From the NCBI GenBank assembly GCA_902628335.1, contig CACOMO010000001.1, positions 45,313 to 109,312 on the forward strand: a stretch of DNA of 64,000 bases. Reading direction: 5' to 3'. Below are positions 10,217 to 25,399 of this stretch, piece after piece (within the stretch, counting starts at the first letter, position 1; the number at the start of each line of letters is the position of its first letter). The translations under genes were made by a program, and so were the position numbers. Source of the DNA: an uncultured Gammaproteobacteria bacterium (GTDB lineage: Bacteria; Pseudomonadota; Gammaproteobacteria; GCA-002705445; GCA-002716945). The notes under the pieces are model-generated. The model had not been told where the DNA came from. It did not search any database and saw nothing but the letters and a program-made list of their open reading frames with translations.

Positions 10217-10219
10217 TAA

Positions 10220-12430: not shown

Positions 12431-14434
12431 TTAGTATCTTGGTTTGTTTTCATGAAACCAGTTTGGGTCGTTTAACGAGATCTCCCCAATCGGAGCTGCC
12501 TTTGCATCTAGAATGAGCTCATCTACATTTGAGCCAGTGAGAGTTTTTAGGAACTCAACTAAATAACCTATTTCTTTCTCACTTAGGTTAAGAGGGAACA
12601 TAAGAGGGCTTAGTACTTCATTTTTTACGCCTCCTTTATTATAGAACTCTACAACCTCTCTAAGCGTTGAAAGAGCTCCGTTATGCATATATGGAGCTGT
12701 AATTGCAACATTCCTGAGGGGTGGGGTTCTGAATTTCCACCTATCATTCGGATCCTGCGTTATAGTATATAGACCAAGGTCATTTGGTGCAATTTCATCT
12801 CTAAATCTAGAATCATCTTTATAACTCGATGTATCAACATCTATCTCTACTCCTGGTGCGAGGATAAGCTTTTTAACAGGAGGTTCAACATACATGGATG
12901 CTTCATAGCCAATACCAGTATTGTGAAGTTTCTCATCTGTAAATAATGCAAATTCATCATTAATTATATGACAGCTTACACAAGCGCCTTTGCCTGTGAA
13001 AATTTCAAAGCCCTTCTGAGCCTCATAAGAAATAGCATTTTTCTCCTTACCATAGTACCACCTATCAAAAGCAGAATTTGCGCTTAATAAGCTATACTGA
13101 TAAGCTGCAAAAGCTCGGCTTATATTATCCATATTAGGTGGTGAGCCGTAAGCTTTTTCAAATTGATTATTATAATCAGGTATGGCTTTAATTTTATTTA
13201 TCAGATAACCAGGTGACGGAATTGCCATCTCATCATGATTAAGTATTGGACCCCAAACTTGATCCTCTAAGCTAGATTCTCTTCCATCATGAAAGAATCG
13301 TGCAAGAAGACCTACATTTAAAACTGTAGGTGCATTTCTTGGCACTGATCTGCCTTCTGTTCCAACTGCAGTTCTTAATTCGTTGTGAGCAAAACCCATT
13401 TCTGGTACATGACATATAGCGCATGAAATTGTATCTGTGTGTGATAGTCTTCGATCGAAGAACATTTTTCTACCAAGGGCTATTTTCTCTTTTGTTAAGG
13501 CGGTGCCTTCTGGGGTTTTCAGTTTTGGTAAGCCAAGATGTTTTTCTGTCGCAATGGCTAAGAGATCTGTGGCTTTGCCAACTCTTTCAAGAGATTGAGC
13601 TTGGGTTGTATAATCCTTGCTGGTGTAACCCTCTTTGTAATCACCGGGTTTTGCTAGTGATGCTCCAGATGCCATTAAAATTGATTGTAAAGAATTAGAA
13701 AATGACTCATCAGACGCAACTAGGATAGGTTCTAATGATGATGATTCAATAGTACCGTTTCTTGTTCTAGGATCTACCAATGTTTTTATATCGTTGATAA
13801 GAACATCTGAATGAAGGTAAGATACACTGTATATATTCCTAACGGTCTTATTTTTGTCTATTAAGAAAACTCTTAATATATGTGATATTGATCCTATGTA
13901 GTTCCCTTCTTCATCATACTCCTTGAGAATTCTCTGACCGTAGCCGTCAAGTATTGGGTTTAAATCTTCAAAAGATGAAGTTGTTAAAAAATTCCAATCT
14001 ACAACGCCTTTGTCAGTTCCGAAACCATAAAGTTTCATTACCTCAGGTGAGTCGTTTTCAGGATCAAAACTCATACTTATAAGGCTAACTTGTTTACCGA
14101 GCTTAGGATCCTTATTTAGCAAGTTCCTAACTTTATGAAAAACAGCAGTAGCTAAAGGGCAACCATTGACATCTGTGCAGGTAGTATACATAAAATTAAG
14201 TAATACAATTTTGTCATCAAACAAATCATGTAATTGTTTTTTATTACCTAGTGAATCTAGGATATTGCCATTAGAAGCAAGATTATATTTTTCTAACGTA
14301 TAAGTGCCTGGCTCAGGAGCTTCAAAATTTAATTGATTATAACCTGGGGCAATTGAATACTCTGTCCTCTGTGCAAAACTTATTGCACAAAACATTACAA
14401 AAAATAGTGATAAATATAGTTTGATTCTCTCCAT
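12431..14434 (-). CDS. SCO1/SenC-like domain fused to a MauG/di-haem cytochrome c peroxidase domain
   Basis: 667 aa with a signal peptide. The N-terminal half is thioredoxin-fold SCO-like (FMYTTCTDVNGCP). The C-terminal half carries two CxxCH haem motifs (CAICH, CVSCH) plus the CCP/MauG strings FHDGRESSLEDQ and FRTPPLRNVAITAPYMHNG. This fusion is the known neighbour of mtoX. Confidence 0.85.
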   Translation of the reverse strand: MERIKLYLSLFFVMFCAISFAQRTEYSIAPGYNQLNFEAPEPGTYTLEKYNLASNGNILDSLGNKKQLHDLFDDKIVLLNFMYTTCTDVNGCPLATAVFHKVRNLLNKDPKLGKQVSLISMSFDPENDSPEVMKLYGFGTDKGVVDWNFLTTSSFEDLNPILDGYGQRILKEYDEEGNYIGSISHILRVFLIDKNKTVRNIYSVSYLHSDVLINDIKTLVDPRTRNGTIESSSLEPILVASDESFSNSLQSILMASGASLAKPGDYKEGYTSKDYTTQAQSLERVGKATDLLAIATEKHLGLPKLKTPEGTALTKEKIALGRKMFFDRRLSHTDTISCAICHVPEMGFAHNELRTAVGTEGRSVPRNAPTVLNVGLLARFFHDGRESSLEDQVWGPILNHDEMAIPSPGYLINKIKAIPDYNNQFEKAYGSPPNMDNISRAFAAYQYSLLSANSAFDRWYYGKEKNAISYEAQKGFEIFTGKGACVSCHIINDEFALFTDEKLHNTGIGYEASMYVEPPVKKLILAPGVEIDVDTSSYKDDSRFRDEIAPNDLGLYTITQDPNDRWKFRTPPLRNVAITAPYMHNGALSTLREVVEFYNKGGVKNEVLSPLMFPLNLSEKEIGYLVEFLKTLTGSNVDELILDAKAAPIGEISLNDPNWFHENKPRY

Positions 14435-14477: not shown

Positions 14478-14512
14478 AAAAAAGAAAGGCCGCTTATCAA
14501 AGATAAGCGGCC
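14478..14512 (-). terminator. Rho-independent terminator downstream of mtoX
   Basis: Perfect 11-bp stem GGCCGCTTATC/GATAAGCGGCC with a 3-nt loop (14488-14512). On the minus strand it is followed by TTTCTTTTTT. Confidence 0.75.
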
Positions 14513-14577
14513 CTACGTCTACAGCCATTTTACGTTATTTACCACCAATGAGGGTGTCTAATAACTATGACCAAATT

Positions 14578-15942
14578 TTACTGACTAAGTTCAGCCAAAT
14601 TTTTATTACTTGGTGTTTTTGCATATAAAGAATATGCGCCAAATCTCATTTGATGAGGCAAACCAAGCTTTTCTTTCAAGAAATCTATTTCAAATTTCTT
14701 AGAAAGTTTACCATTAGCATAATCATATGCTTTGAAGTATTGAGGCATTTTATCTGGTCCGTCAGCTTTATCCCAGTTGGCTAGAAGAGAAGACGTGAAA
14801 TATACACGTTTTCCGTCCCAACTTTGAGAAAGCATATTGATCTGATCACCAATTCTCTCAGTATAAACTTCTTTCGCATTATGTGGATCTGAGATGTCAA
14901 AAACTCTAGTCATGCCATCATTCCATGTATTTACCCAGAGGTGTTTATCATCTGCAGTTATCGAAATATCTACAGGTAAAGGAATTTTAGCAGGATCACC
15001 TATTGTTCCAACAGACTTAGCATTCCACTCATTATCTTTCTCGTAAATGAGCCAGATTTGTGATGTCAATGCAGTTGTTGTAAAACAGTAGTTGTTCTGA
15101 GAACCCCACGCGCATCTAATTTCTAGAGGTGCACCTGGTACATCAAAGATTTTTTTAGGTTTACGTGAATGTAAATCCCAAACAACAACAGTGTTACCGA
15201 ATCTCTTCATCGCTTCACTATCGCCCATTAATTTACCTAAGTTCATCATGTAATTATTCCAACCAGTAAAGGATGAAGTGATCATTACATTTCTTCTTGG
15301 TAATGCACGAACATCGTAACCATAACCATCAGCAAGCTGCCCAGTTTTAACAGCACCTCTAAGGTTACCGTCTACAGGCATATCATGCGTAGCTACGTAC
15401 GTACCATCGTTTGTGTATTCAACTAATGCTGTTCTACCACCAAAATCTTGGTTGTTTGATAATCCTGAGATCATCATTCTTCCAGGTAGTGCATATGTTG
15501 TATGAGGTCCAACTATACCGCCACTTGCTTTAACAAAGTCAGTGATGACTTTATGAAGCTTTGGTTTTTGTGGGTTAGTGTGGACATCAAATATAAAGAT
15601 TTTACTTGTATCTAAAGTTGCTGCCCATAGATAATGCCTATCATCTGTAAACCCAGAGTGATGAGCCTCATTACGACCACCAACAGATATGTGACCAATT
15701 ACATTGCCATAGTGAGGTGATGATGGATTGACAGCAATAGTTACTAATTTATCCTGTTCATCTCCAACACCCACTTGACCAAGTGTCCATACATAAACGT
15801 AATCCTCTTGGCCAACGATCTTAGCCATGTATGGTGACATGCAAGTCTCATCTGAGAATACATGTGTTGGTACAAGTACTAAAGCAAGAAAGCTTGACAT
15901 CAACATACCGTATACGGTTGACATAAGTCTTCTTATTTTCAT
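14578..15942 (-). CDS. mtoX: Methanethiol oxidase, selenium-binding protein (SBP56) family, periplasmic
   Basis: 454 aa. N-terminal signal with an RR (MKIRRLMS...). SBP56 hallmark strings NEAHHSGF, KPKLHKVITDF, RRNVMITS, PLEIRCAW, FDISDPHNAKEV and DGKRVYFTSSLLANWDK. AGGAG Shine-Dalgarno 9 nt upstream. Confidence 0.9.
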   Translation of the reverse strand: MKIRRLMSTVYGMLMSSFLALVLVPTHVFSDETCMSPYMAKIVGQEDYVYVWTLGQVGVGDEQDKLVTIAVNPSSPHYGNVIGHISVGGRNEAHHSGFTDDRHYLWAATLDTSKIFIFDVHTNPQKPKLHKVITDFVKASGGIVGPHTTYALPGRMMISGLSNNQDFGGRTALVEYTNDGTYVATHDMPVDGNLRGAVKTGQLADGYGYDVRALPRRNVMITSSFTGWNNYMMNLGKLMGDSEAMKRFGNTVVVWDLHSRKPKKIFDVPGAPLEIRCAWGSQNNYCFTTTALTSQIWLIYEKDNEWNAKSVGTIGDPAKIPLPVDISITADDKHLWVNTWNDGMTRVFDISDPHNAKEVYTERIGDQINMLSQSWDGKRVYFTSSLLANWDKADGPDKMPQYFKAYDYANGKLSKKFEIDFLKEKLGLPHQMRFGAYSLYAKTPSNKNLAELSQ

Positions 15943-16045: not shown

Positions 16046-17545
16046 TTAGAAAGTCCAAGTTAATGCTCCACCTAGGTGAAAAGAAGAAACCGTAGCTTTT
16101 GAATGGTCAGCTGCTGCACAACCAGCATCAGCTAAACCGCCAGCAAGAGCTGTACCTCTAACCGCTGCGTTTCCGCCAGCATAGCTAGATGTTACACCTG
16201 CTTGACCAGCACCGAAGCATTTGTCCTCTTCGAGTTGGAAAGCCACGTGTGTATCAAGTGTTAGCATTGGTGCTAAGAATCCATCGATTCCAAGACCTGC
16301 AGATATACGATGTTTGTAGATAACTGGTGTTTCCATAGCTTGGAAATAAGACATAAATAAAGGATACATAGCAGATGTATATGTGCTACCACCTTCGTTT
16401 ACACCACCAATTGTTTTAATTTGAACACCGTCTTGAACACTCGCTCTCAATGGATCATCAGCATATCCATAACCTAGTCTAAATTTCATAGGTCCTTGAG
16501 TAAGCTGTAAACCAACAGAGTAGACTTCTTGGTCTTCATAAAACTCATTAAAGAATCGAGCATCGCTCCATGCTTTATGAGTAAAGTCACCCATCACTAA
16601 GAGATTTCCATTCATCAATCCATCAAAAGCAAATCCAAGACCAATATTCATCGGTTGTTCTACTCTTACGTCTTGACGACATACGCTACCGCTAGTTTGG
16701 TTACACTTAATTTCTGGTTGAAACTGAACGATACCTGATCCAGCACCTAATCCAGCCGAACCATGGTTACTAGTTACATGCAAATTATCATACTCGTGTG
16801 GTTGTTCTGTTTGAACGTAAGCGCCAACTGTCAAGTTAGAGTTTACTTTAGCACGTCCACCAAGAGTTGCACGAAAGCCAATGTCATGTGTCATGCCACC
16901 TGAACCTGTCAAACCAGCTTCAAGCATTGCATAGGTAATTGTCGCAGATACACCAACATCAACGTTAGGAGTCATTGACATACCGATACCGGCATTAACA
17001 CCTAAGTTAATTAGCTCTGCTGCTGCGCCTAATGTGTTTGAATTATGTTTATAATCAACACCGATACCAGATGTAGCTGATACACCTACACCAAGAACTA
17101 CTGGTATACCAAGACCAGTTAAGTCTTGAGTTACCGCAATAGTTGGCACAGCATAAACATCAGCTTTAGATGTAGCATCGAAGTGATAGTATCTTGCACC
17201 AGGTTTACCTGTTGCTCCAGCTGTAATTCTAACTAGGGATGTTGCTTCACCTACCGCATAACCCGCAGATCCATCATGAATCATACGCGCGCGCGGCATG
17301 TAGAATGTTGCACCAAACATAAAGTTAGTACCACCGTAGTAAGTTGTCAATGTTGCTGGATTACCAAAAACAGCGGATACTGGATCTTCTACATGCGCAA
17401 TACTAGTACCAGCCATTGAAGCTGATGCGCCATGAAACACATTATGAAGATCGAACCCATGTGGTCCAGCAACGGCCGCACCAGAACCTAGCGATAAGGC
17501 TGTACCTACCGCAGCTCCGAGCTTCCAATTACTATTTGTTTTCAT
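16046..17545 (-). CDS. Outer-membrane transport protein of the OMPP1/FadL/TodX (XylN-like) family for hydrophobic or volatile substrates
   Basis: 499 aa with a signal peptide ending AVAGP. N-terminal AGTSIAHVEDPVSAVFGNPATL matches the FadL-family NPA motif. Gly/Ala/Thr-rich beta-strand pattern and a C-terminal aromatic (LTWTF). About 45-48% G+C in sampled lines. Confidence 0.7.
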   Translation of the reverse strand: MKTNSNWKLGAAVGTALSLGSGAAVAGPHGFDLHNVFHGASASMAGTSIAHVEDPVSAVFGNPATLTTYYGGTNFMFGATFYMPRARMIHDGSAGYAVGEATSLVRITAGATGKPGARYYHFDATSKADVYAVPTIAVTQDLTGLGIPVVLGVGVSATSGIGVDYKHNSNTLGAAAELINLGVNAGIGMSMTPNVDVGVSATITYAMLEAGLTGSGGMTHDIGFRATLGGRAKVNSNLTVGAYVQTEQPHEYDNLHVTSNHGSAGLGAGSGIVQFQPEIKCNQTSGSVCRQDVRVEQPMNIGLGFAFDGLMNGNLLVMGDFTHKAWSDARFFNEFYEDQEVYSVGLQLTQGPMKFRLGYGYADDPLRASVQDGVQIKTIGGVNEGGSTYTSAMYPLFMSYFQAMETPVIYKHRISAGLGIDGFLAPMLTLDTHVAFQLEEDKCFGAGQAGVTSSYAGGNAAVRGTALAGGLADAGCAAADHSKATVSSFHLGGALTWTF

Positions 17546-17732
17546 ATTTTTTCCTCATTATATATATATAATAAATAACGTCTTAAAATTTTGGGTGAAT
17601 TACTTCTTGTAATCAAATGTGAATTTAACCCCCAATTGTCCTTCCTATAAGACTGTTTTTTATTGTTGTTTTTACTACAGATCTCTCTGTAGTATTTAAC
17701 TTGATGACTCAAAGTCAACAAGTCAAATCCAT

Positions 17733-18005
17733 TTACCCCTCATCTCCTGGTCCGTAGACTCCATCTTCAAACCATTCCCATGGACGGTTACCTGCAACTT
17801 TGATGAACAAATACACGCTAATCATATTTGCAACAATGAGCAAGAATCCAATTAGCAACGCAATTGGCCAACCAGCTAATCCTGGCATTGAACCTGGTGC
17901 GAAATGCCATGTTGGGAACATGCCGCTGAAGAAGTAGTAACAGGCTACCCAGAATGCCACGACAACATATGTGCCTTGAGCAGTTTTCCCGAATAGAAAT
18001 CCCAT
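17733..18005 (-). CDS. Small two-TM membrane protein of unknown function
   Basis: 90 aa with two hydrophobic segments and a Trp-rich acidic tail (RPWEWFEDGVYGPGDEG). Strong AGGAGA Shine-Dalgarno 6 nt upstream. I recognise no family. Confidence 0.55.
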   Translation of the reverse strand: MGFLFGKTAQGTYVVVAFWVACYYFFSGMFPTWHFAPGSMPGLAGWPIALLIGFLLIVANMISVYLFIKVAGNRPWEWFEDGVYGPGDEG

Positions 18006-18139
18006 ATTAATATCTCCTCTGTATAAGCATTTAATGATATAATAATACTTAATATATCTCTTTAACGTTCTTTAAAACTAACACAATTACAGGGTTTGTA
18101 AACATATTTTTGCAGTTTTATGAGGAGTTCTGTGAGCGC

Positions 18140-19228
18140 TTATAAATCCCTAGAATCAGTGAATTTATCATAGAAAATTTCATCACTTTTTATTCCATGT
18201 TTTTCTAGAACAACACAAGCAGCATCTATCATAGGGGGTGGCCCACAAAGATAACCTTGCCAGTCAGAGACATCTAAATTATCTTTTTTTATTATTTCAT
18301 TTTCAAAATAGTCTGTGACTAATCCACGACCACCTTTCCAATCACTATCCTCCGGTTCCATGTTTAGGACAGGGATAAAATCAAATTTATAATCTTTATT
18401 CCATTTATCTTTGAGTTCTTTTATTTCCTTAACACAATATAAATCCTCTTGTGTTCTTGCTCCGAAAAGAAAAACAACATCTCTCTTAACTTGGTCAAGA
18501 ACTCCACCTTCCAGTAGAGCTTTTATGGGTGCTAAGCCACTTCCACCAGCAATGCAAACAATTGGTGATTGTTTTTCTCGAAGGTAAAATGATCCAAATG
18601 GACCATTAACAGTTACTTGTTGACTCATATCTCTGTTGCTACCAAATAACCACTCAGTAAATTTTCCACCAGGAACCTTTCGTATAAAAAATGTAAACTC
18701 ATTTGGTTTTTCATTTTTTGGTGCTGCTGCATAAGAGTATGAACGAGGTCTGTCTAGACCATCTATTGAGAGTTCAGCCCACATACCAGGTAGACCTGCG
18801 TGCTCTACGTTTTGATCTGTTTGTAATACTACTCTCATAATGTCAGAAGTTAACATTTCAGTTTCGCTAATTAATGCGTTGTTTTTGATAGCAGGTACAC
18901 GAACAAGATCACCAAGATCAACTTCTATCTCACAATCCATTACAGGGCGTGCTTGACAGGCGAGAAAGTAACCATCATCAATCTCCTCTTTTGTAAGTAC
19001 TTGTGAATAATCAGATGTAGGTTTAATTTTTCCTTTTAATACTTTTCCCATACACGATGAACAGCTACCAAATTTACAATCATGTGGCCAGTCAAGTCCT
19101 TGCTCAAGAGCGGCATTTAATATCGATTGGTTACTTTTGACAAAAACCTTCTTATTAGAGGGAAGGAGTGTCATAGTTCCATCCTTGGGTTTATTACCAA
19201 AAAACCATAAATACTTATAAATGTTCAT
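18140..19228 (-). CDS. NAD(P)H:ferredoxin reductase with an N-terminal plant-type 2Fe-2S domain and a C-terminal FNR-like FAD/NAD domain (XylA-type electron-transfer component)
   Basis: C-x4-C-x2-C...C motif (CKFGSCSSC ... LACQ), FAD motif RSYSYA and NAD motif IAGGSGLAPI. The likely true start is Met19 (19174), which has AAGGA 7 nt upstream. The first 18 codons look non-coding. Confidence 0.85.
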   Translation of the reverse strand: MNIYKYLWFFGNKPKDGTMTLLPSNKKVFVKSNQSILNAALEQGLDWPHDCKFGSCSSCMGKVLKGKIKPTSDYSQVLTKEEIDDGYFLACQARPVMDCEIEVDLGDLVRVPAIKNNALISETEMLTSDIMRVVLQTDQNVEHAGLPGMWAELSIDGLDRPRSYSYAAAPKNEKPNEFTFFIRKVPGGKFTEWLFGSNRDMSQQVTVNGPFGSFYLREKQSPIVCIAGGSGLAPIKALLEGGVLDQVKRDVVFLFGARTQEDLYCVKEIKELKDKWNKDYKFDFIPVLNMEPEDSDWKGGRGLVTDYFENEIIKKDNLDVSDWQGYLCGPPPMIDAACVVLEKHGIKSDEIFYDKFTDSRDL

Positions 19229-19309
19229 CCTATAAAACCTTTCTTATTACTAATAAATTCTAAATCAAAGTAATCGTATTTACACGGAAATTATAATAAC
19301 ACCATGTAC

Positions 19310-19340
19310 AAAAAAAGAAACCCCAATTAAAATTGGGGTT
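19310..19340 (-). terminator. Rho-independent terminator downstream of the GST-like gene
   Basis: AACCCCAATT/AATTGGGGTT hairpin, followed on the minus strand by TCTTTTTTT. Confidence 0.75.
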
Positions 19341-19367
19341 CCTAATTGATGTTATATCAAATACTAC

Positions 19368-20018
19368 TTAAGCAGTATTGATACGAACTTCCCTGATTGT
19401 GCCTGCGTCAGCATCAGCTTTAGTAGACATACAGCCGTAAGGACTTATACTCTCCTTACTTGTAGATGGATGTGATTGCACAGAACTGAACCAAGCATTC
19501 ACCTTGGCTCTTGAACTTACTGCATCTCCTTTCCCCATATTTGTTGCTACTTGACAAACACCGGCCCACGCGCAATCTGCTAGCGTGTATTGACCACATA
19601 CATAATCCCCTCTCATATTGCCGAGTGACGATCCTAGTGTTTCTTCAAGTTGATCAAGTGATGCGGCTAGGCTTGCATCATCACTAACGTCACAAGCTTG
19701 TGCAACTGTAATTTCGCGCCACATGCGTGCACGAGTTACACCATTTCTGTGAACAAGTGATGGACCAAAGCCTTTGTCATCAATGTACGACATACATGCA
19801 ACTAGACCGTAATTTATACAATCACGATCTTTAAGAATAGGTCCTATTCCTAGTGGCGACATACTGCGTATTGAGCCTGATGGCCCCCAATCTGTCTCCG
19901 CATGACAATTCAAGTCAACACCTTTTTCACCGGCAGCTAATAGCACAGCGTTAGTGTGTGGACAGGCAGGACTACCATATAAGTCTTGTACGTCTCTTAG
20001 GTGATCTCCTATTGGCAT
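19368..20018 (-). CDS. Glutathione S-transferase-family protein with an N-terminal Cys-type site
   Basis: 216 aa. GST N-domain pattern (LYGSPACPHTNAVLLAAGEKGVD, SPLGIGPILKD) and C-domain pattern (GDYVCGQYTLADCAWA). About 47% G+C in a sampled line. GGGGG Shine-Dalgarno upstream. Confidence 0.6.
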   Translation of the reverse strand: MPIGDHLRDVQDLYGSPACPHTNAVLLAAGEKGVDLNCHAETDWGPSGSIRSMSPLGIGPILKDRDCINYGLVACMSYIDDKGFGPSLVHRNGVTRARMWREITVAQACDVSDDASLAASLDQLEETLGSSLGNMRGDYVCGQYTLADCAWAGVCQVATNMGKGDAVSSRAKVNAWFSSVQSHPSTSKESISPYGCMSTKADADAGTIREVRINTA

Positions 20019-20066
20019 AATATTACCCCCTATTATGTTTTTTTGTTTATAACTTAGCTAAGCTAG

Positions 20067-20246
20067 TTATTCTTCTATTTTTAACGCACCAGATGGACAG
20101 TTAGAAACTGTTAACCTGATGTTGTCTTCGCTGTCAGCAGATGTATCAATCACGAATTGTCCGTCTACTACTTTGAAAACGTTTGGTGATCCTTTTACAC
20201 ACTCACCAGCGTGTGTGCAGGTTTCTGCATCATAAGTAACTTTCAT
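20067..20246 (-). CDS. Small divergent 4Fe-4S mono-cluster protein (59 aa; below the ORF-track size cut-off)
   Basis: Hand translation: MKVTYDAETCTHAGECVKGSPNVFKVVDGQFVIDTSADSEDNIRLTVSNCPSGALKIEE. It matches the C-x-H-x3-C ... CPSGAL pattern of the small (4Fe-4S)-binding protein family (Fer4_19-like). AGGAG Shine-Dalgarno 6 nt upstream of the ATG. Confidence 0.72.
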   Translation of the reverse strand: MKVTYDAETCTHAGECVKGSPNVFKVVDGQFVIDTSADSEDNIRLTVSNCPSGALKIEE

Positions 20247-20324
20247 TATTCTCTCCTACTTAACCTATATATTTAATATAACGCAAATTTTAGTAGTTAT
20301 GCTAGTCATATTTTATGTTTTATT

Positions 20325-20357
20325 AAAAAAAATAGGCACCCAATAATGGGTGCCTAT
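20325..20357 (-). terminator. Rho-independent terminator downstream of the alkB-like gene
   Basis: 11-bp stem ATAGGCACCCA/TGGGTGCCTAT with a 4-nt loop, followed on the minus strand by an 8-T run. Confidence 0.8.
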
Positions 20358-20374
20358 CAAAATAAACTGATGGT

Positions 20375-21607
20375 TTACTTTTTAGCTGTTCTTAATCCAA
20401 GATCAACATTTCCAGCATCTTGTAAGACATCACCTGAGAATGGAGTACCTTCGTATCCAACTTCTCTGTTAAGTCTTGCAGCGATTGCTTTTTCTTCGTC
20501 AGTTGCGAAGTGCTCATCCCAAGCAGCTAGTCTTTTTCTCATGTACCAGTGCCATATTGGTGGTACTAGTGCAATGAAGAAGACCACGAAGTATCCCCAT
20601 CCTGTATTAGGGCAACCTACATTCTCGAGCTCCCAGAAATGAGTTTCTCCACGATCATGATGGTCTGCTTGACGACCAATCTCAATGAAGAACCATGCTG
20701 TAAAGCAAGTAGAGTTATCCCAGTTATGGCGATAATCGATTGGCTGATCTTTTAGACGAATCAAGCCATAGTGCTCTAGATAGTTCAACGCTTCTAATTC
20801 GAAGTTTGAAATACCCCAGATTGTAGCTAAACAAGCCATACCAACCCAGCCACCTGCTACGAAGAACAGAGTAACTGTTGGAACAGCCATTAAGTAACCA
20901 CGAATCCAACGGTTTTGCCATGAAATGAAAGGTACGCCCATACGGCCTAGTCTTTCTTTTTCCATGTTAAATAAAAACTTTGATTGACCTAGATATGATA
21001 GTGGGTAGTGACCATAAATTGTGCGACCACGTGGTGCAGTTGCAGGATCATCTTCACTAGCAAGTTCTAAGTGATGGTTGTACACGTGTGCATAGCAGAA
21101 ATGTGCAGAACCAGAAAGTGCCATCATTAGTCTTGAGATTACAAAACCAAAACCTTTGGTATGTGATAGCTCGTGACCATATATAATACCGATACCAATA
21201 AAGATACCAGATGATAATGTAGCACCAATCAAGTTAAGACCTGATATGCCTTCATGCATTGCTAACAGCCCTGGAATAATTTCCATGATGACTGCGCCTT
21301 CAGCTCCGCCTAGTGACATGTAAGAGTAAACTCTCCAAGCCATTACTAATTGGAACAATACGAACACAGGAAGCATAAAGTACATGGTCAAGTTTTGGAA
21401 AGTTGCCCATCCTCTTGTGTTTCCTTCTTCGTCTACTCCTACGCCTGTAGTTTCAAACTTAGTTGCTATGTCTACTAAAAGACCAACAAAAAGTAATACC
21501 ACACCTAACCAAGCCATAATGCCTCCGATTAGGACACCAGCACCAGCTACTATAATTAGTATTGGAGCAAGTAGGTAACGTACGTTTAATAATATGTTTC
21601 CGATCAT
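20375..21607 (-). CDS. Integral-membrane di-iron monooxygenase of the AlkB/XylM (fatty-acid desaturase superfamily) type
   Basis: His boxes HELSHT and AHVYNHH followed by EDDPATAPRG. NYLEHYGL motif and a third box RQADHH. Multiple TM segments. I moved the start to Met47 of the track ORF (ATG at 21607) because GGGAGG lies 6 nt upstream and the first 46 codons look like translated intergenic DNA. Confidence 0.85.
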   Translation of the reverse strand: MIGNILLNVRYLLAPILIIVAGAGVLIGGIMAWLGVVLLFVGLLVDIATKFETTGVGVDEEGNTRGWATFQNLTMYFMLPVFVLFQLVMAWRVYSYMSLGGAEGAVIMEIIPGLLAMHEGISGLNLIGATLSSGIFIGIGIIYGHELSHTKGFGFVISRLMMALSGSAHFCYAHVYNHHLELASEDDPATAPRGRTIYGHYPLSYLGQSKFLFNMEKERLGRMGVPFISWQNRWIRGYLMAVPTVTLFFVAGGWVGMACLATIWGISNFELEALNYLEHYGLIRLKDQPIDYRHNWDNSTCFTAWFFIEIGRQADHHDRGETHFWELENVGCPNTGWGYFVVFFIALVPPIWHWYMRKRLAAWDEHFATDEEKAIAARLNREVGYEGTPFSGDVLQDAGNVDLGLRTAKK

Positions 21608-21632: not shown

Positions 21633-21661
21633 ATTATACTTGTAAACACTAATGTTTCGAA
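21633..21661 (-). promoter_or_regulatory. Putative sigma70 promoter for the alkB-like gene
   Basis: On the minus strand: TTCGAA, a 17-nt spacer, then a perfect TATAAT (reverse complement of 21633-21638). It sits about 25 nt upstream of the start codon. Confidence 0.35.
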
Positions 21662-21794: not shown

Positions 21795-21902
21795 CATTTA
21801 GTGATATCCACAAATATGAGATTTTTCAGGCAATTCCTTATATTTTTTGGGGAAAACACATCTTATTTTTATGAGAGAGAATCAAATGTTATCATTAAGA
21901 CA

Positions 21903-22466
21903 ATGTTTAGATTAGTGATACAAAGTTTCATACTCAGTGCGGTATTAGTTCAGAATATTTATGCGATGCCTGACGTCAGCAAAGCTCTTCATGAGGTCTC
22001 TTTTTTTTCTCCGACAGAGAAGTCAGTGAAATTAGATAGGTACGAGGGTAAAGTAATGTTAGTTTTTTTTGGGTACACTCATTGCCCAGATATTTGCCCT
22101 ACTACCATGCTAGATATACGCAAGTCATTAATTGAACTAGGTGATCTCGCTAAGAGAGTTCAACCTGTGTTTATCAGCGTTGATCACCAAAGAGATACAC
22201 CAGAGATTGTCTCAAAATATGTGGATTTTTTTGACAAAAGGATTCTTGGTCTTACCTCATCCAAGGAAATGATCGATAGGATAACAAAATATTTCAAGAT
22301 CCCTTACGAGCTGGTGGACAGTAAAAATAATCCAAACTACATTGTTGAACATAGTTCGAACCTGTACGTAATAGACGAAAACATGGTAGTGAGAAGAATT
22401 ATCCCTAATGGCCTCCCATATACAGAGATTACCAAAACAATTCGCTCTCTAAGCGTAACTAATTAA
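21903..22466 (+). CDS. SCO1/SenC-family copper chaperone
   Basis: FGYTHCPDICP (CxxxCP) motif and a conserved downstream His (VEHSS). The start is set at ATG 21903 (MFRLVIQSFILSAVLVQNIYA signal/anchor) rather than the track's GTG at 21801. Confidence 0.8.
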   Translation: MFRLVIQSFILSAVLVQNIYAMPDVSKALHEVSFFSPTEKSVKLDRYEGKVMLVFFGYTHCPDICPTTMLDIRKSLIELGDLAKRVQPVFISVDHQRDTPEIVSKYVDFFDKRILGLTSSKEMIDRITKYFKIPYELVDSKNNPNYIVEHSSNLYVIDENMVVRRIIPNGLPYTEITKTIRSLSVTN

Positions 22467-22831
22467 TCATATTTTATGTATTTAAATCTTGGGTCATCCG
22501 GGGTTCCTTCAAGTGTGTTGTCCTCGTTTGATGGGTTCCACTGAATAACCTCCTCAATCTTTTTAGCTAATAGGAAGTCTTTATCGGTGATACCTTTTGC
22601 CGCATGATTCTGAAGCTTGACGATAACGAATGCGTAGGATGCTGAAATATCCGGATGATGCCACGCAGCTTCTGCTAGGTGACCTACTGTTGAAATCACC
22701 ATTAACGTCCCTTTCCATCCGCTGGTTTTATACTTTCTTCTAATCCACCCATTTTCATAGTACCAATTACTAAGGTGTGCTTTAAGGTAATCATTTATTT
22801 CGGTCTCAGAATATGTCTTTTCATCAGCCAT
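22463..22831 (-). CDS. Pterin-4-alpha-carbinolamine dehydratase (PCD/DCoH family)
   Basis: 122 aa with the motif AEAAWHHPDISASYAFVIVKLQNH..GITDKD. Confidence 0.78.
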   Translation of the reverse strand: MADEKTYSETEINDYLKAHLSNWYYENGWIRRKYKTSGWKGTLMVISTVGHLAEAAWHHPDISASYAFVIVKLQNHAAKGITDKDFLLAKKIEEVIQWNPSNEDNTLEGTPDDPRFKYIKYD

Positions 22832-23176: not shown

Positions 23177-23656
23177 ATGTCGAAACTCACTGAAAAAATC
23201 ATAAACAGCGCACAGCCAAGATCAGCTGATTATAGACTTTCAGACGGGTCAGGTTTAGCAGTAATAATTAGAAAAAACGGTAACAAGCACTGGCAATTTC
23301 GTTACCACGTTTACGAGAATGGCAAACGCAAAGAGAGAATATATTCACTAGGTGAATACCCAACACTTAGTATCGAGAAAGCCAGACAAGAACATAGTTT
23401 TTTGAAAAAAAAGTTAGCTGATGGAGAAGATATTCAAAATATTAAAAGAAGGCAAGGTCTCAAGATTGTCAAAAAGCAACCTTCATTTGTTGAAATCGCT
23501 CAAGAGTTAAAGAAAATAAAAGAAAGGAAAAATCAGCTGGATTACAAATCTTGGAAAAAAGAACTCTCAAAATTTGAAAGTTCAATGTTACCTCACCTCA
23601 AAGAACTTAATCTTGAAAACCTTACTGCTGAAGATCTAATGCAAGTTCTTGATCCG
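23177..23656 (+). pseudogene. Remnant of a P4-type tyrosine integrase: Arm DNA-binding (DUF4102-like) plus SAM-like N-domain only, catalytic domain absent
   Basis: LTEKIINSAQPRSADYRLSDGSGLAVIIRKNGNKHWQFRY...GKRKERIYSLGEYPTLSIEKARQEHSFLKKKLADGEDI is the classic integrase arm-domain pattern. SFVEIAQE...NLTAEDLMQVLDP matches the following SAM-like domain. No R..HxxR..Y catalytic region follows. Confidence 0.75.
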
Positions 23657-25399
23657 CACTCAGATAAGAAAGAACAACAAAAAGATGGATTAATACGAGA
23701 AAAGAAATTCAAAAAAAACAAGAGACTTAGAAACAGAGGAAGAAAAGTTAATCTTGATGTAAAAGAAGATTTAATCAAGCTCATAAATACAGATTCCTAT
23801 AGACGTGACCATTTAATAGAATATCTTCATTTAATTCAGGATGCTAAGGGCCATATAAATGAGGAATATATGACGGCTCTAGCTGATTTAATGGATATCT
23901 CTCAAACTGAAGTCTATGAAGTGGCCACATTTTACCATCACTTTGACATTATAAAGTCGGGTGATGAATGTCCGCCCTCACTCACAATAAGAGTGTGCGA
24001 TTCTGTGTCATGTGAATTAAATGGAGCTCATGAATTGGCAGACGAACTAGACAATTATTACAAAGGATCAGTAAGAATACAAAAAGTACCTTGTATTGGA
24101 AGATGTCAGAATGCTCCAGTAGCAGTTGTGAAATTCAATCCTATAGATCATGCAAATTTTAAAAAAATAAAAATTGCAGTAGATCAAAAAAAATATCAAC
24201 CCGAAATCCCAAAGTATATAACTATGTCTGATTATTCCTCCAAAGGAGGTTATGAATTATTAGATGAAATCAAAAAAGGATCCGTTACTAAAGAAAGTGT
24301 ATTGGTCGAACTAGAAAACTCAAATCTTCGTGGCTTAGGTGGAGCAGGTTTCCCAGCAGGAAAAAAATGGAGAATCTTAATCGAACAAGAAGCTCCGAGA
24401 CTATTAGCAGTAAATATAGATGAGGGTGAGCCAGGGACTTTTAAAGATCGTCATTATCTTGAATCAGACCCTCATAGATTTTTAGAGGGTATGCTTATAG
24501 CTTCTGAAGTTGTAGGTATTGATAAGATTTATATTTATTTGCGTGATGAATATGCGGCAGTTCGTAAAATACTCGCTGATGAATTAGATAACATAAGAGA
24601 TAAATTTGCTGGTGATATACCAGATATTGAACTCAGACGAGGCGCAGGTGCATATATATGTGGAGAGGAGTCAGCAATGATTGAATCTATCGAAGGAAAA
24701 AAAGGTATGCCGAGATTAAGACCACCTTTCGTCGCACAAGTTGGTCTATTTGGAAGACCTACCCTTGCTCATAATATGGAGACTCTTTATTGGGTAAGAG
24801 ACATTATTGAAAAAGGAGCAGATTGGTTTACATCTTATGGTCGTAATGATCGAAAAGGTCTTAGATCATTCTCTGTAAGCGGTAGAGTTAAAAAACCTGG
24901 TGTCCATCTTGCACCTGCAGGAATTACCGTTAGGGAGCTAATCGACGAATATGCTGGAGGTATGGAAGAAGGTCATAAGTTCTATGCGTATTTCCCTGGT
25001 GGAGCCTCAGGTGGCATTCTACCTGCGTCTATGGACGATATACCTCTTGATTTTGATACCCTTCATGAATATGGTTGTTTCATTGGATCTGCAGCAATTG
25101 TAATCTTATCTGACAAAGATAAAGTTGCTCAAGCGGCATCAACTACTATGGGATTCTTCCTTCATGAATCATGCGGAAAATGTACTCCATGCAGAGTAGG
25201 TACCTCAAAAGCCACTGAAATGATGAAAGAAAAAAAATGGAATGTGCCATTACTTTCAGAACTCTCTCAAGTTATGTCGGATGCATCAATTTGTGGTCTA
25301 GGTCAAGCAGCATCAAATCCGCTCAAATGCGTTATAAAATATTTCCCTAATGAACCAGAGACAACTCCTATCATTGAATATAAAAAGGTGCAGAATTAA
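23177..25399 (+). CDS. fdsB: NAD-dependent formate dehydrogenase beta subunit (NuoE-like plus NuoF-like domains) carrying an in-frame integrase-derived N-terminal extension
   Basis: From about residue 195: a NuoE-type 2Fe-2S domain (RVCDSVSCE ... VPCIGRCQNAP), the FMN site GLGGAGFPAGKKW and the NuoF 4Fe-4S motif ESCGKCTPCR. There is no in-frame ATG/GTG/TTG between Met155 (23639) and the NuoE-like domain. Confidence 0.85.
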   Translation: MSKLTEKIINSAQPRSADYRLSDGSGLAVIIRKNGNKHWQFRYHVYENGKRKERIYSLGEYPTLSIEKARQEHSFLKKKLADGEDIQNIKRRQGLKIVKKQPSFVEIAQELKKIKERKNQLDYKSWKKELSKFESSMLPHLKELNLENLTAEDLMQVLDPHSDKKEQQKDGLIREKKFKKNKRLRNRGRKVNLDVKEDLIKLINTDSYRRDHLIEYLHLIQDAKGHINEEYMTALADLMDISQTEVYEVATFYHHFDIIKSGDECPPSLTIRVCDSVSCELNGAHELADELDNYYKGSVRIQKVPCIGRCQNAPVAVVKFNPIDHANFKKIKIAVDQKKYQPEIPKYITMSDYSSKGGYELLDEIKKGSVTKESVLVELENSNLRGLGGAGFPAGKKWRILIEQEAPRLLAVNIDEGEPGTFKDRHYLESDPHRFLEGMLIASEVVGIDKIYIYLRDEYAAVRKILADELDNIRDKFAGDIPDIELRRGAGAYICGEESAMIESIEGKKGMPRLRPPFVAQVGLFGRPTLAHNMETLYWVRDIIEKGADWFTSYGRNDRKGLRSFSVSGRVKKPGVHLAPAGITVRELIDEYAGGMEEGHKFYAYFPGGASGGILPASMDDIPLDFDTLHEYGCFIGSAAIVILSDKDKVAQAASTTMGFFLHESCGKCTPCRVGTSKATEMMKEKKWNVPLLSELSQVMSDASICGLGQAASNPLKCVIKYFPNEPETTPIIEYKKVQN

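What the first reader, a model, noticed from the sequence alone, without database searches (positions are those of the whole stretch)
16046..21607. AlkB/XylM-type membrane di-iron monooxygenase module wired directly to methanethiol oxidase: candidate undescribed dimethylsulfide (or other volatile methyl-compound) monooxygenase
Six co-directional genes sit immediately upstream of mtoX on the same strand. In transcription order they are: an AlkB/XylM-like hydroxylase (20375-21607), a 59-aa mini 4Fe-4S protein (20067-20246), a Cys-type GST (19368-20018), a 2Fe-2S-FNR fusion reductase (18140-19228), a 2-TM protein (17733-18005) and a FadL/TodX/XylN-type porin (16046-17545). The hydroxylase, fusion reductase and FadL porin resemble the xylM-xylA-xylN logic for uptake and methyl-group hydroxylation of a volatile hydrophobic substrate. 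There is no rubredoxin or rubredoxin reductase, and no alcohol or aldehyde dehydrogenase, as a true alkane or xylene pathway would need. The only downstream chemistry encoded nearby is methanethiol oxidation (MtoX with SCO1-MauG), formaldehyde oxidation (fae, mtdB, mch, fhcBADC) and formate oxidation (fdsBA). Hydroxylating one methyl of dimethylsulfide gives a hemithioacetal that collapses to methanethiol plus formaldehyde, which are exactly the substrates of those neighbouring enzymes. The characterised DMS monooxygenase (DmoA) is an FMNH2-dependent luciferase-family enzyme, and nothing like it is present here. A membrane di-iron DMS (or methyl-thioether, methyl-halide or short-alkane) monooxygenase would therefore be new. 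The substrate assignment is inference only.
Basis: partly seen in the sequence, partly recalled or inferred. Interest (0 to 1): 0.85.

Follow-up and report, generated by a model that had tools for sequence, protein, structure and literature searches.

The report
Candidate membrane di-iron DMS monooxygenase
Next to the methanethiol oxidase gene of an uncultured marine methylotroph lies a conserved enzyme set built around an unusual relative of alkane hydroxylase; its counterpart in Methylophaga is switched on about 100-fold by dimethylsulfide, so it is a strong but untested candidate for the missing enzyme that starts bacterial breakdown of this climate-active gas.

Summary
Six co-directional minus-strand genes (hydroxylase, 59-aa ferredoxin, Cys-GST, 2Fe-2S/FNR reductase, 2-TM protein, FadL/TodX-family porin) sit directly upstream of a bona fide mtoX with SCO1-MauG and TlpA. 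They lie between H4MPT formaldehyde-oxidation genes and formate dehydrogenase genes.

The hydroxylase has the AlkB fold but belongs to a sharply separated clade (at least 60% identity inside, at most 38% outside). All 85 members examined replace one of AlkB's nine iron-binding histidines with glutamine (RQxDHH). None of the 85 loci holds a rubredoxin, alcohol dehydrogenase or aldehyde dehydrogenase.

The hydroxylase-ferredoxin-GST-reductase-2TM-porin module recurs in several gammaproteobacterial lineages. mtoX lies within 10 kb only in the window's lineage (10 of 10 loci that reach far enough) and in Methylophaga.

Independent support comes from published M. thiooxydans data. Transcripts whose names match the orthologous module, 7.7 kb from mtoX, rise 29-136-fold on DMS versus methanol. 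That paper read the hydroxylase as a lipid desaturase and left the primary DMS enzyme unidentified.

Best reading (about 0.5): an NADH-dependent membrane DMS monooxygenase producing methanethiol and formaldehyde. No description was found in the searchable literature. The substrate is unproven.

The parts
21633..21660 (-). Promoter-like site (TCGAAA-16-TATAAT) upstream of the hydroxylase start
   Evidence: Consensus scan, 10 of 12 matches. A consensus match only; the count of such sites in the region equals that in shuffles.
20375..21607 (-). AlkB-fold membrane di-iron hydroxylase (410 aa) of a distinct clade with an RQxDHH last histidine box
   Evidence: PF00487. AlkB structures at E 1e-28 and 1e-24. 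AF2 model pTM 0.75, and Foldseek hits only AlkB with TM about 0.7. One 50%-identity cluster, with the next full-length relatives at 34-38% identity. Q313 aligns with FtAlkB ligand H321 in 85 of 85 members.
20331..20358 (-). Terminator-like hairpin (12-bp stem plus T run) just after the hydroxylase stop
20067..20246 (-). 59-aa single-cluster ferredoxin (Fer4_19) with three Cys (C10, C16, C50) and His12
   Evidence: Pfam E 7e-15. It aligns end to end with the T. maritima 4Fe-4S ferredoxin 1rof, with the second cluster Cys replaced. An intact ORF next to the hydroxylase was called in 29 of 85 loci, mainly architectures A, C and D, and tblastn finds a few more.
19368..20018 (-). Cytoplasmic GST-fold protein with an invariant N-terminal Cys
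   Evidence: GST_C_2, FzlA and SspA weak hits. Alignment of 16 orthologues shows the invariant Cys, an SP.G..P loop and an SY(I/L)DDKGFG motif. Present in 53 of 85 loci.
19316..19343 (-). Terminator-like hairpin after the GST gene
18140..19228 (-). 2Fe-2S ferredoxin / FAD / NAD(P)H reductase fusion (BenC/MmoC/XylA-type architecture)
   Evidence: Fer2 + FAD_binding_6 + NAD_binding_1. BenC 217 bits and MmoC 175 bits, both below the equivalog cut-offs.
17733..18005 (-). Small 2-TM protein. A 67-80-aa counterpart with the same C-terminal KVAG..P(F/W)EW motif occupies this position in other lineages.
   Evidence: Sequence inspection plus ORF clusters 12 and 7. No credible Pfam family.
16046..17545 (-). 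FadL/TodX-family outer-membrane channel for hydrophobic molecules, with a signal peptide
   Evidence: The orthologue profile hits CymD, TbuX and TodX at 6e-16 to 7e-10. 13 of 16 members hit Toluene_X. The window protein alone has no Pfam hit.
14578..15942 (-). Methanethiol oxidase MtoX (periplasmic, SBP56 family)
   Evidence: NCBIfam equivalog 715 bits against a cut-off of 650; PF05694.
14486..14514 (-). Terminator-like hairpin (13-bp stem) after mtoX
12431..14434 (-). SCO1-MauG fusion (copper chaperone domain plus di-haem peroxidase), the usual MtoX maturation partner
   Evidence: PF02630 + PF03150. The same pair is described beside mtoX in M. thiooxydans.
11887..12420 (-). TlpA/ResA-like periplasmic thiol-disulfide oxidoreductase
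   Evidence: It is also part of the M. thiooxydans mto clusters.
21801..22466 (+). SCO1/SenC copper chaperone, transcribed divergently from the hydroxylase
   Evidence: PF02630, E 3e-37. Conserved at this position in all loci of the window's lineage.
22463..22831 (-). Pterin-4a-carbinolamine dehydratase-like protein, conserved at the edge of the block; role unknown
   Evidence: PF01329. Conserved in the window's lineage.
7317..11904 (+). fhcBADC (formyltransferase/hydrolase complex of the H4MPT pathway), convergent with the cluster; downstream formaldehyde chemistry
23177..28159 (+). NAD-linked formate dehydrogenase FdsB-like and FdsA-like genes. The first ORF carries an in-frame integrase N-terminal remnant.

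Best explanation
The block encodes a multicomponent, membrane-bound, non-haem di-iron monooxygenase that hydroxylates one methyl group of dimethylsulfide.

**Proposed mechanism** (the whole sequence of steps is inferred, and the biochemistry is untested; only gene identities, folds, synteny and DMS-induced expression of the Methylophaga orthologues are shown)
1. DMS crosses the outer membrane through the FadL/TodX-type channel.
2. NAD(P)H reduces the FAD/2Fe-2S reductase.
3. Electrons pass to the AlkB-fold hydroxylase in the inner membrane, either directly as in XylA-XylM or through the 59-aa three-Cys ferredoxin.
4. The product CH3-S-CH2OH falls apart into methanethiol and formaldehyde.
5. 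Methanethiol is oxidised in the periplasm by MtoX, which is matured by SCO1-MauG, SCO1 and TlpA.
6. Formaldehyde is taken by Fae into the H4MPT pathway (mtdB, mch, fhcBADC). The resulting formate goes to the adjacent NAD-linked formate dehydrogenase.

The Cys-type GST and the small 2-TM protein are conserved parts of the module. Their roles are guesses: thiol or hemithioacetal handling for the GST, and an accessory membrane subunit for the 2-TM protein.
For: 1. Fold and motifs are those of a methyl-group hydroxylase of the AlkB/XylM kind. The channel-lining L274 and the Glu near Fe1 of FtAlkB are conserved.
2. A dedicated reductase, ferredoxin and hydrophobic-substrate porin travel with the hydroxylase across several gammaproteobacterial lineages.
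3. None of the 85 loci holds a rubredoxin, ADH or ALDH, so the product is not a stable alcohol needing further dehydrogenation.
4. In the window's lineage the module lies immediately upstream of mtoX in 10 of 10 loci that reach that far, despite 42-77% divergence of partner proteins. It is bracketed by formaldehyde and formate oxidation genes.
5. In M. thiooxydans DMS010 the orthologous module (hydroxylase 64% identical) lies 7.7 kb from mtoX MDMS009_211.
6. On DMS versus methanol, transcripts for the desaturase-domain protein (1359 vs 10), NAD-binding oxidoreductase (618 vs 12), aromatic-hydrocarbon membrane protein (1469 vs 18) and glbN (601 vs 21) are strongly induced. The locus product MDMS009_82 is 9.3-fold up in the proteome and identical in sequence to L081:15857-16132.
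7. That study found no other candidate for the primary DMS enzyme. It notes that M. thiooxydans and M. sulfidovorans probably share an unidentified one. Both carry this hydroxylase.
8. A June 2026 review still lists DmoA as the only DMS-to-methanethiol enzyme. Literature searches found no AlkB-type DMS enzyme.
Against: - There is no biochemistry.
- DMS monooxygenase activity was reported as not detected in DMS-grown M. thiooxydans (Boden 2010, as cited). A labile membrane multicomponent enzyme could easily be missed in such an assay.
- Induction on DMS could be indirect, through methanethiol, sulfide or H2O2.
- mtoX is within 10 kb in only 13 of 85 loci, from two lineages. Genome-wide co-occurrence could not be tested.
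- The mapping of locus tags 226, 61, 906 and 199 to the L081 genes rests on product names. Only 211 and 82 were verified by coordinates or sequence. The strand column of Table S6 disagrees for 906 and 211.
- The clade lacks one of the nine His ligands said to be invariant and indispensable in AlkB, so its chemistry may differ.
- From my own knowledge, not checked here: AlkB oxidises methyl thioethers to sulfoxides, so S-oxygenation is chemically plausible.
- Terminator-like hairpins separate the hydroxylase, GST and mtoX units.
- The role of the GST is unexplained.
Confidence: 0.5

Rival explanations
1. It is a hydroxylase for some other hydrophobic or volatile compound, such as short or medium alkanes, isoprene, a methyl-aromatic or a methyl halide. 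It merely sits beside mtoX in this lineage.
For: - AlkB fold, and JGI annotations as alkane 1-monooxygenase.
- The porin family's solved members carry toluene or cymene.
- 72 of 85 loci have no mtoX within 10 kb.
- Relatives outside the clade include ferredoxin-reductase-AlkB fusions that were expressed and shown to be active.
Against: - No alcohol or aldehyde dehydrogenase and no rubredoxin in any locus.
- The window context is C1 metabolism only.
- 29-136-fold induction by DMS in a culture fed only DMS.
- The clade is far from characterised AlkB and XylM, at 24-35% identity.
Confidence: 0.15
2. It is an organosulfur oxygenase with a different reaction. It either S-oxygenates DMS to DMSO or attacks another methyl-sulfur compound such as dimethyl disulfide, dimethyl trisulfide or larger methyl thioethers. 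The Cys-GST would handle mixed disulfides.
For: - DMS-linked induction and mtoX linkage do not discriminate C-hydroxylation from other oxidations of methyl-sulfur compounds.
- An invariant catalytic-position Cys in the GST suggests thiol-disulfide chemistry.
- MsrB, a methyl-sulfoxide reductase, lies directly upstream in one architecture.
- From memory, not checked here: AlkB performs sulfoxidation of methyl thioethers.
Against: - DMSO would not feed MtoX or the formaldehyde pathway that flanks the cluster.
- M. thiooxydans grows on DMS as carbon source through methanethiol, and no other DMS-cleaving candidate was induced.
- No DMSO reductase was found among the called genes of the loci that were annotated.
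Confidence: 0.15
3. It is a membrane-lipid desaturase or hydroxylase, with its own reductase, that repairs or remodels membranes under the H2O2, thiol or sulfide stress of methanethiol oxidation. This is the interpretation given in the M. thiooxydans paper.
For: - PF00487 family membership.
- A QxxHH last box. I recall, without checking here, that this is typical of front-end lipid desaturases (for the motif).
- The authors' reasoning.
- A second, solo copy next to an FA_hydroxylase-family gene.
Against: - The fold search returns only AlkB, not desaturases.
- The AlkB-specific NYxEHYG motif is present.
- A dedicated outer-membrane channel for hydrophobic solutes makes no sense for an endogenous lipid substrate.
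- The module is retained beside mtoX in small, low-GC genomes.
Confidence: 0.07

Closest known systems
AlkB alkane 1-monooxygenase (P. putida GPo1; Fontimonas thermophila structures 8f6t and 8sbb)
   Same: - Same fold: TM-score about 0.7, and AlkB is the only significant PDB match.
- HELxH, HxxxHH and NYxEHYG motifs, the Glu next to Fe1 and the channel Leu are conserved.
- Active site on the cytoplasmic face of the inner membrane (by homology).
- Terminal methyl hydroxylation chemistry (inferred).
   Different: - Only 23-24% (structural alignment) to 26-35% (tblastn) identity, and a separate long-branch clade.
- The first His of the last box is Gln in all 85 members.
- No rubredoxin or rubredoxin reductase. 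Instead there is a Fer2-FNR reductase plus a three-Cys mini-ferredoxin.
- No alkJ/alkH-type dehydrogenases.
- Extra conserved GST and 2-TM partners.
- Invariant acidic residues (E270, E272, E309) where FtAlkB has W/Q, T and H near the substrate terminus.
Xylene monooxygenase XylM/XylA with porin XylN (TOL plasmid pWW0)
   Same: The logic is the same: an AlkB-type membrane hydroxylase, a 2Fe-2S/FNR fusion reductase and a FadL-family channel for a volatile hydrophobic substrate, with attack on a methyl group. Hydroxylase identity to XylM is 26-28%.
   Different: - It is no closer to XylM than to AlkB.
- No benzyl-alcohol or benzaldehyde dehydrogenase genes.
- Additional ferredoxin, GST and 2-TM genes.
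- The neighbours are mtoX and C1 oxidation genes.
Ferredoxin-reductase/ferredoxin-AlkB three-domain fusions (ferr_ferrR_AlkB; Nie 2014, Williams 2021, reviewed in PMC8918992)
   Same: They show that AlkB-type hydroxylases can run on ferredoxin and FNR partners instead of rubredoxin. Fused forms of 742-786 aa appear among the nearest out-clade relatives.
   Different: Here the partners are separate genes. The hydroxylase is at most about 31-32% identical to the three long relatives listed (754, 786 and 742 aa), which I take to be such fusions from their length and match position. The nearest out-clade relatives keep RHxxHH (11 sampled, not including these three).
DmoA/DmoB FMNH2-dependent DMS monooxygenase (Hyphomicrobium sulfonivorans)
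   Same: The proposed overall reaction is the same: DMS + O2 + NADH gives methanethiol + formaldehyde, feeding MtoX.
   Different: Unrelated protein family: a soluble luciferase-like flavin enzyme versus a membrane di-iron enzyme. No luciferase-like gene was found among the scanned window ORFs. dmoA is absent from Methylophaga genomes according to PMC6548844.
Front-end fatty-acid desaturases (QxxHH third histidine box)
   Same: They share the His-to-Gln replacement in the last histidine box, within the same superfamily. That front-end desaturases carry QxxHH is my own knowledge.
   Different: Different fold subclass, since Foldseek finds only AlkB. No cytochrome b5 domain. NYxEHYG is present. 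The genomic partners point to an exogenous hydrophobic substrate.

Membership tests
AlkB alkane 1-monooxygenase | AlkB-type fold (six TM helices plus a cytoplasmic cap) | tested here: met
   AF2 model pLDDT 70, pTM 0.75. Foldseek against the PDB: 8f6t E 7e-8 with TM 0.71, 8sbb E 2e-7, and nothing else significant.
AlkB alkane 1-monooxygenase | Nine histidine iron ligands in four motifs, described as invariant and indispensable (PMC10110569) | tested here: not met
   Eight of nine are present. FtAlkB H321 aligns with Q313. RQxDHH occurs in 85 of 85 clade members, against R/W-H-x-x-H-H in 11 of 11 nearest outgroups.
AlkB alkane 1-monooxygenase | NYxEHYG motif with the conserved Glu near Fe1 | tested here: met
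   NYLEHYG at residues 275-281. N(Y/F)(L/M)EHYG in all 85 clade members.
AlkB alkane 1-monooxygenase | Rubredoxin (AlkG) and rubredoxin reductase (AlkT) as electron donors | tested here: not met
   No rubredoxin motif in six-frame translations of 84 related loci; the only motif hits lie in the FdhA Fe-S domain. Among the window ORFs put through family searches, none matched a rubredoxin; ORFs beyond 53.7 kb were not scanned. A Fer2-FNR reductase and a Fer4_19 ferredoxin are present instead.
AlkB alkane 1-monooxygenase | Orthology with characterised AlkBs | tested here: not met
   24-35% identity to AlkB. The clade collapses to one 50%-identity cluster at 625 bits, with the next full-length relative at 188 bits. 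It sits on a long separate branch. No NCBIfam model matches.
AlkB alkane 1-monooxygenase | Alkane hydroxylation activity, with linked alcohol and aldehyde dehydrogenases | not testable with these tools
   Activity cannot be tested here. No ADH or ALDH appears among the conserved neighbours in 85 loci.
XylMA xylene monooxygenase system | Membrane hydroxylase plus a single 2Fe-2S/FNR fusion reductase | tested here: inconclusive
   A reductase of the right architecture is present. Hydroxylase identity to XylM is 26-28%, no higher than to AlkB. An extra ferredoxin gene is conserved, so the electron path may differ.
XylMA xylene monooxygenase system | FadL-family channel (XylN-like) in the cluster | tested here: met
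   The profile of porin orthologues hits CymD, TbuX and TodX. 13 of 16 members hit Toluene_X.
XylMA xylene monooxygenase system | Adjacent benzyl-alcohol and benzaldehyde dehydrogenases (XylB, XylC) | tested here: not met
   None among the scanned window ORFs or in the related loci.
DmoA-type DMS monooxygenase | Luciferase-like FMNH2-dependent monooxygenase with a flavin reductase | tested here: not met
   The hydroxylase is PF00487. No luciferase-like ORF was found among the scanned window ORFs.
DmoA-type DMS monooxygenase | Catalyses DMS to methanethiol plus formaldehyde | not testable with these tools
   Supported only by context and by DMS-induced expression of the Methylophaga orthologues.
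MtoX methanethiol oxidase module (the neighbour) | SBP56-family protein above the NCBIfam equivalog cut-off, followed by SCO1-MauG | tested here: met
   715 bits against a cut-off of 650. SCO1-SenC + CCP_MauG fusion downstream, then a TlpA-like gene. The order is the same as in the M. thiooxydans mto clusters.
Front-end lipid desaturases | QxxHH box together with a cytochrome b5 domain and the desaturase fold | tested here: not met
   A QxxHH-like box is present. There is no b5 domain, and the fold search finds AlkB only.

The most novel reading that the evidence does not exclude
This clade is a new family of membrane-bound DMS monooxygenases. It consists of an AlkB-fold hydroxylase with an RQxDHH box, plus a three-Cys ferredoxin, a Cys-GST, a Fer2-FNR reductase, a 2-TM protein and a FadL-type channel. 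On this reading it is the long-sought primary DMS enzyme of Methylophaga, previously assumed to be a methyltransferase, and of an abundant, small-genome pelagic gammaproteobacterial methylotroph lineage. It would therefore be an unrecognised genetic marker for a substantial part of marine DMS consumption.
Probability: 0.45. Interest if true: 0.9.

Novelty: new variant of a known kind. Interest (0 to 1): 0.8.

Why it matters
Bacterial consumption removes much of the DMS produced in the sea before it can reach the atmosphere. Even so, the only known enzyme that converts DMS to methanethiol (DmoA) is absent from Methylophaga, a model marine DMS degrader. A 2026 review still lists DmoA alone for this step.

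If this module is the enzyme, three things follow:
- A question left open since 2010 for Methylophaga would be closed.
- There would be a sequence marker for DMS-oxidising bacteria. One 90%-identity cluster of the hydroxylase alone has 2784 member sequences.
- The chemistry of the AlkB family would extend to C-S bond cleavage, with a modified His8-Gln iron site and new partner proteins.

It would also correct widespread annotations as 'fatty acid desaturase' or 'alkane 1-monooxygenase', which may inflate estimates of marine alkane degraders.

Tried and rejected
- **Exact look-up of the window's MtoX** in the assembly index found nothing. The source record and the wider genome could not be retrieved. 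The organism is known only from related MAG titles (Gammaproteobacteria, or 'Ectothiorhodospiraceae').
- **Genome-wide co-occurrence of the hydroxylase with mtoX** could not be tested.
- **Locus tags in the paper's supplements.** The sequence of MDMS009_226 is not in the supplementary tables. Its identity with EEF81234.1 therefore rests on product names, on two genes of the same locus that could be anchored (211 by coordinates, 82 by sequence), and on glbN (tag 199) matched by product name.
- **Porin alone.** The window protein gave no Pfam, NCBIfam or PDB hit. Only the orthologue profile revealed the TodX family.
- **A plain single operon** was rejected because of three strong terminator-like hairpins.
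- **A canonical alkane or xylene pathway** was rejected because rubredoxin, ADH and ALDH are absent in 85 loci.
- **Membership in AlkB proper** was rejected on the His-to-Gln ligand change and the phylogenetic gap.
- **Rfam and tRNA scans** added nothing to the cluster.
- **Searches on the sponge-symbiont hosts** (Oxydemutator, Porisulfidus) gave no functional information.
- **The search on Methylophaga with alkB** turned up no paper characterising this gene among those listed.

Full report
**1. Observation**

The six ORFs described lie on the minus strand at the stated coordinates.
- The 410-aa protein (20375-21607) is a PF00487 member (E 9e-27). Its best solved relatives are the two Fontimonas thermophila AlkB structures (E 1e-28 and 1e-24).
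- The 59-aa protein is a Fer4_19 single-cluster ferredoxin.
- The 216-aa protein has a GST fold that is weak on its own.
- The 362-aa protein is a Fer2 / FAD_binding_6 / NAD_binding_1 fusion resembling BenC, AntC and MmoC.
- The 90-aa protein has two hydrophobic segments.
- The 499-aa protein gives no hit alone. A profile of 16 orthologues matches the hydrophobic-solute channels CymD, TbuX and TodX (6e-16 to 7e-10), and 13 of 16 members hit Pfam Toluene_X.

Directly downstream come three further genes:
- MtoX, at 715 bits against an NCBIfam equivalog cut-off of 650.
- A SCO1-MauG fusion.
- A TlpA-like protein.

A SCO1 gene is transcribed divergently from the hydroxylase. The block lies between fhcBADC (with fae, mch, mtdB and H4MPT biosynthesis genes further upstream) and FdsB/FdsA-type formate dehydrogenase genes with FdhD. 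The scanned ORFs between 29.9 and 53.4 kb are housekeeping and LPS genes. ORFs beyond 53.7 kb were named from their first residues only. No luciferase-type monooxygenase, rubredoxin, ADH or ALDH was found among the scanned ORFs.

Strong terminator-like hairpins (12-13-bp stems followed by T runs) follow the hydroxylase, the GST and mtoX. The genes are co-directional and tightly linked, but not demonstrably a single transcript.

**2. The hydroxylase is an AlkB-fold enzyme of its own clade**

- An AlphaFold model (pLDDT 70, pTM 0.75) matches only AlkB in the PDB (TM about 0.7).
- Against plasmid-borne genes it is equally distant from AlkB and XylM, at 26-35% identity.
- In a library clustered at 50% identity, the whole clade collapses to one full-length representative at 625 bits. 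The next full-length relatives score at most 188 bits at 34-38% identity.
- A neighbour-joining tree places all 85 sequences examined on one long branch.
- HELxH, HxxxHH and NYxEHYG are intact. The last box reads R-Q-x-D-H-H in 85 of 85 clade members, but R/W-H-x-x-H-H in 11 of 11 nearest outgroups.
- Q313 aligns exactly with FtAlkB H321. H321 is the first residue of the H321-x2-H-H325 motif, one of the nine His ligands described as invariant and indispensable.
- The channel residue L274 and the Glu beside Fe1 are conserved. L318 becomes Ile and L315 becomes Phe. Invariant acidic residues (E270, E272, E309) surround the site.

The protein works like AlkB/XylM in architecture, but it fails a defining feature of AlkB proper.

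**3. Related loci**

A scan of one genome per GTDB species found 202 relatives. The best 80 loci are all Gammaproteobacteria. They include marine MAGs and SAGs, sponge-associated Ca. Oxydemutator and Porisulfidus, Methylophaga, Cocleimonas and Thiothrix. Synteny was assessed by tblastn and ORF clustering.

- **A, the window's lineage** (hydroxylase 84-94% identical). The full order pcd-sco1|hyd-fer4-gst-red-2TM-porin-mtoX-scoMauG-tlpA is present in all 10 loci that extend far enough. Partner proteins have diverged to 42-77% identity.
- **B, a solo paralogue** (69-78% identical) in the same genomes, with none of the partners.
- **C to F, other lineages.** These keep hyd-(globin)-fer4-gst-red-2TM-porin or subsets of it.
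- **G, another solo copy.** It is often nearly identical to the module-linked copy in the same genome.

mtoX lies within 10 kb in 13 of 85 loci: type A, one Methylophaga MAG and M. thiooxydans. No locus contains a rubredoxin. Neighbour families include globins, an SCO4226-like protein, NMO, MsrB, MerR and LysR regulators and CbbQ/VWA, but no ADH or ALDH.

The GST orthologues share an invariant Cys at the catalytic-loop position and several invariant motifs. The small 2-TM protein has a counterpart with the same C-terminal motif in the other architectures. The ferredoxin has only three Cys, and the second cluster Cys of the T. maritima 4Fe-4S ferredoxin is replaced.

**4. Independent functional evidence**

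The Methylophaga-type hydroxylase is 100% identical to WP_218153271 of M. sulfidovorans. The M. thiooxydans DMS010 protein EEF81234.1, 'fatty acid desaturase domain protein', is in the same family and is 64% identical to the window protein.

Its locus (GG657883.1, L081) reads as follows:

scoMauG - mtoX ... LysR ... VWA - CbbQ | hyd - globin - Fer4_19 - GST - Fer2/FNR - 67-aa TM - Toluene_X porin - globin - SCO4226-like - NMO

Two genes anchor this locus to the published study:
- The mtoX coordinates (256587-257906) coincide with those the authors give for MDMS009_211.
- The 91-aa SCO4226-like product is identical to MDMS009_82, which is 9.3-fold up in the DMS proteome.

In the transcriptome of DMS-grown versus methanol-grown cells (PMC6548844 Table S6):

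| Locus tag | Product name | DMS | Methanol |
|---|---|---|---|
[quoted passage not shown] | 906 | membrane protein, aromatic hydrocarbon degradation | 1469 | 18 |
| 199 | glbN | 601 | 21 |

These names match the L081 genes. The mapping of the four tags is by name only, and the strand column disagrees for 906 and 211.

The authors interpreted the desaturase as membrane repair. They found no candidate for the presumed DMS methyltransferase. They concluded that an unrecognised route, 'such as a hydrolase or monooxygenase', may exist, and that it is probably shared by M. thiooxydans and M. sulfidovorans.

**5. Mechanism proposed**

What is shown: gene identities, folds, conserved synteny and DMS-linked expression of the orthologues. 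The pathway itself is inferred, as follows.
1. DMS enters through the FadL-type channel.
2. NAD(P)H reduces the reductase.
3. Electrons reach the di-iron hydroxylase, possibly through the three-Cys ferredoxin.
4. The hydroxylase oxidises a methyl C-H bond.
5. The hemithioacetal product collapses to methanethiol and formaldehyde.
6. MtoX consumes the methanethiol. The Fae/H4MPT pathway and then formate dehydrogenase consume the formaldehyde.

The roles of the GST and the 2-TM protein are unknown.

Rival readings are:
- Another hydrophobic substrate.
- A different organosulfur oxidation. S-oxygenation to DMSO is chemically plausible for AlkB-type enzymes, from my own knowledge.
- Lipid modification under stress.

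Points against the main reading:
- DMS monooxygenase activity was not detected in M. thiooxydans (Boden 2010, cited).
- mtoX adjacency is restricted to two lineages.
- Induction could be indirect.
- The iron site is altered.

**6. Novelty**

Literature searches and a June 2026 review show no AlkB-type DMS enzyme. DmoA remains the only enzyme listed for DMS to methanethiol. AlkB-type hydroxylases driven by ferredoxin and FNR are known as three-domain fusions, and XylMA/XylN provides the closest system-level analogy.

I classify this as a new variant of a known kind: an AlkB-fold hydroxylase with a His8-Gln site, a new partner set and probably a new substrate.

- Confidence in the DMS monooxygenase reading: about 0.5.
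- Interest: 0.8.

Noticed in passing
window 23177-23700 (start of the 740-aa ORF 23177-25399); also L009:6541-7083: The first ~160 residues of the FdsB-like ORF match the N-terminal domain of a phage-type integrase (NF007246, 59 bits), fused in frame to the NuoE/NuoF-like part. A 51%-identical fragment lies at the same position in L009 but not in the other loci of this lineage. GC is 36-42% over 12-28 kb against 30-34% in the flanks. Together these hint that the pcd-to-tlpA block is an old island inserted between the fhc and fds genes.
   Followed up: partly
L017-L032, L046, L054 (same genomes as L003, L005, L007, L010, L013 and others): Genomes of the window's lineage carry a second hydroxylase copy, 69-78% identical, with the same RQxDHH box. 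It has no ferredoxin, GST, reductase, porin or mtoX nearby. It sits after an L31-like ribosomal protein gene and near an FA_hydroxylase-family gene. Other lineages also have two copies, one module-linked and one solo, that are sometimes nearly identical in sequence.
   Followed up: partly
window 20331-20358, 19316-19343, 14486-14514 (minus strand): Three long, perfect GC-rich hairpins followed by T runs lie right after the hydroxylase, GST and mtoX stop codons. The scan found 9 terminator-like sites against 5.9 ± 2.1 in shuffles. They may be partial terminators or mRNA stabilisers that set different expression levels within the cluster.
   Followed up: no
L081:15857-16132 (M. thiooxydans), and ORF cluster 42 in L033, L035, L037, L041, L062, L068, L073, L077: A 91-aa SCO4226-like protein follows the porin in the Methylophaga and sponge-symbiont architectures. 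It is identical to MDMS009_82, a 'hypothetical protein' 9.3-fold up in the DMS proteome. Its function is unknown, and it is absent from the window's lineage.
   Followed up: partly
L058, L061, L064, L066, L075, L078 (about 9.4-9.8 kb, directly upstream of the hydroxylase): In one architecture the module follows nusA-infB-rbfA-truB-rpsO-pnp and an MsrB (methionine-R-sulfoxide reductase) gene. In the Methylophaga type, one or two truncated-globin genes are interleaved with the module.
   Followed up: no
window 22463-22831: A pterin-4a-carbinolamine dehydratase-like gene is conserved next to SCO1 at the edge of the cluster in all loci of this lineage. No pterin-dependent hydroxylase was found among the scanned window ORFs, and its role is unexplained.
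   Followed up: no
L009:~9581 (minus strand) and L003, L019 throughout the module: L009 has a partial inverted second hydroxylase copy (82% identical) just upstream of the intact one. L003 and L019 show the reductase and porin broken into several short ORFs, most likely frameshift errors in those assemblies.
   Followed up: no
L042-L057, L060 (about 13.8-15 kb): Several lineages carry two additional tandem GST-like genes and a conserved 146-aa protein with no Pfam family, downstream of the module.
   Followed up: no
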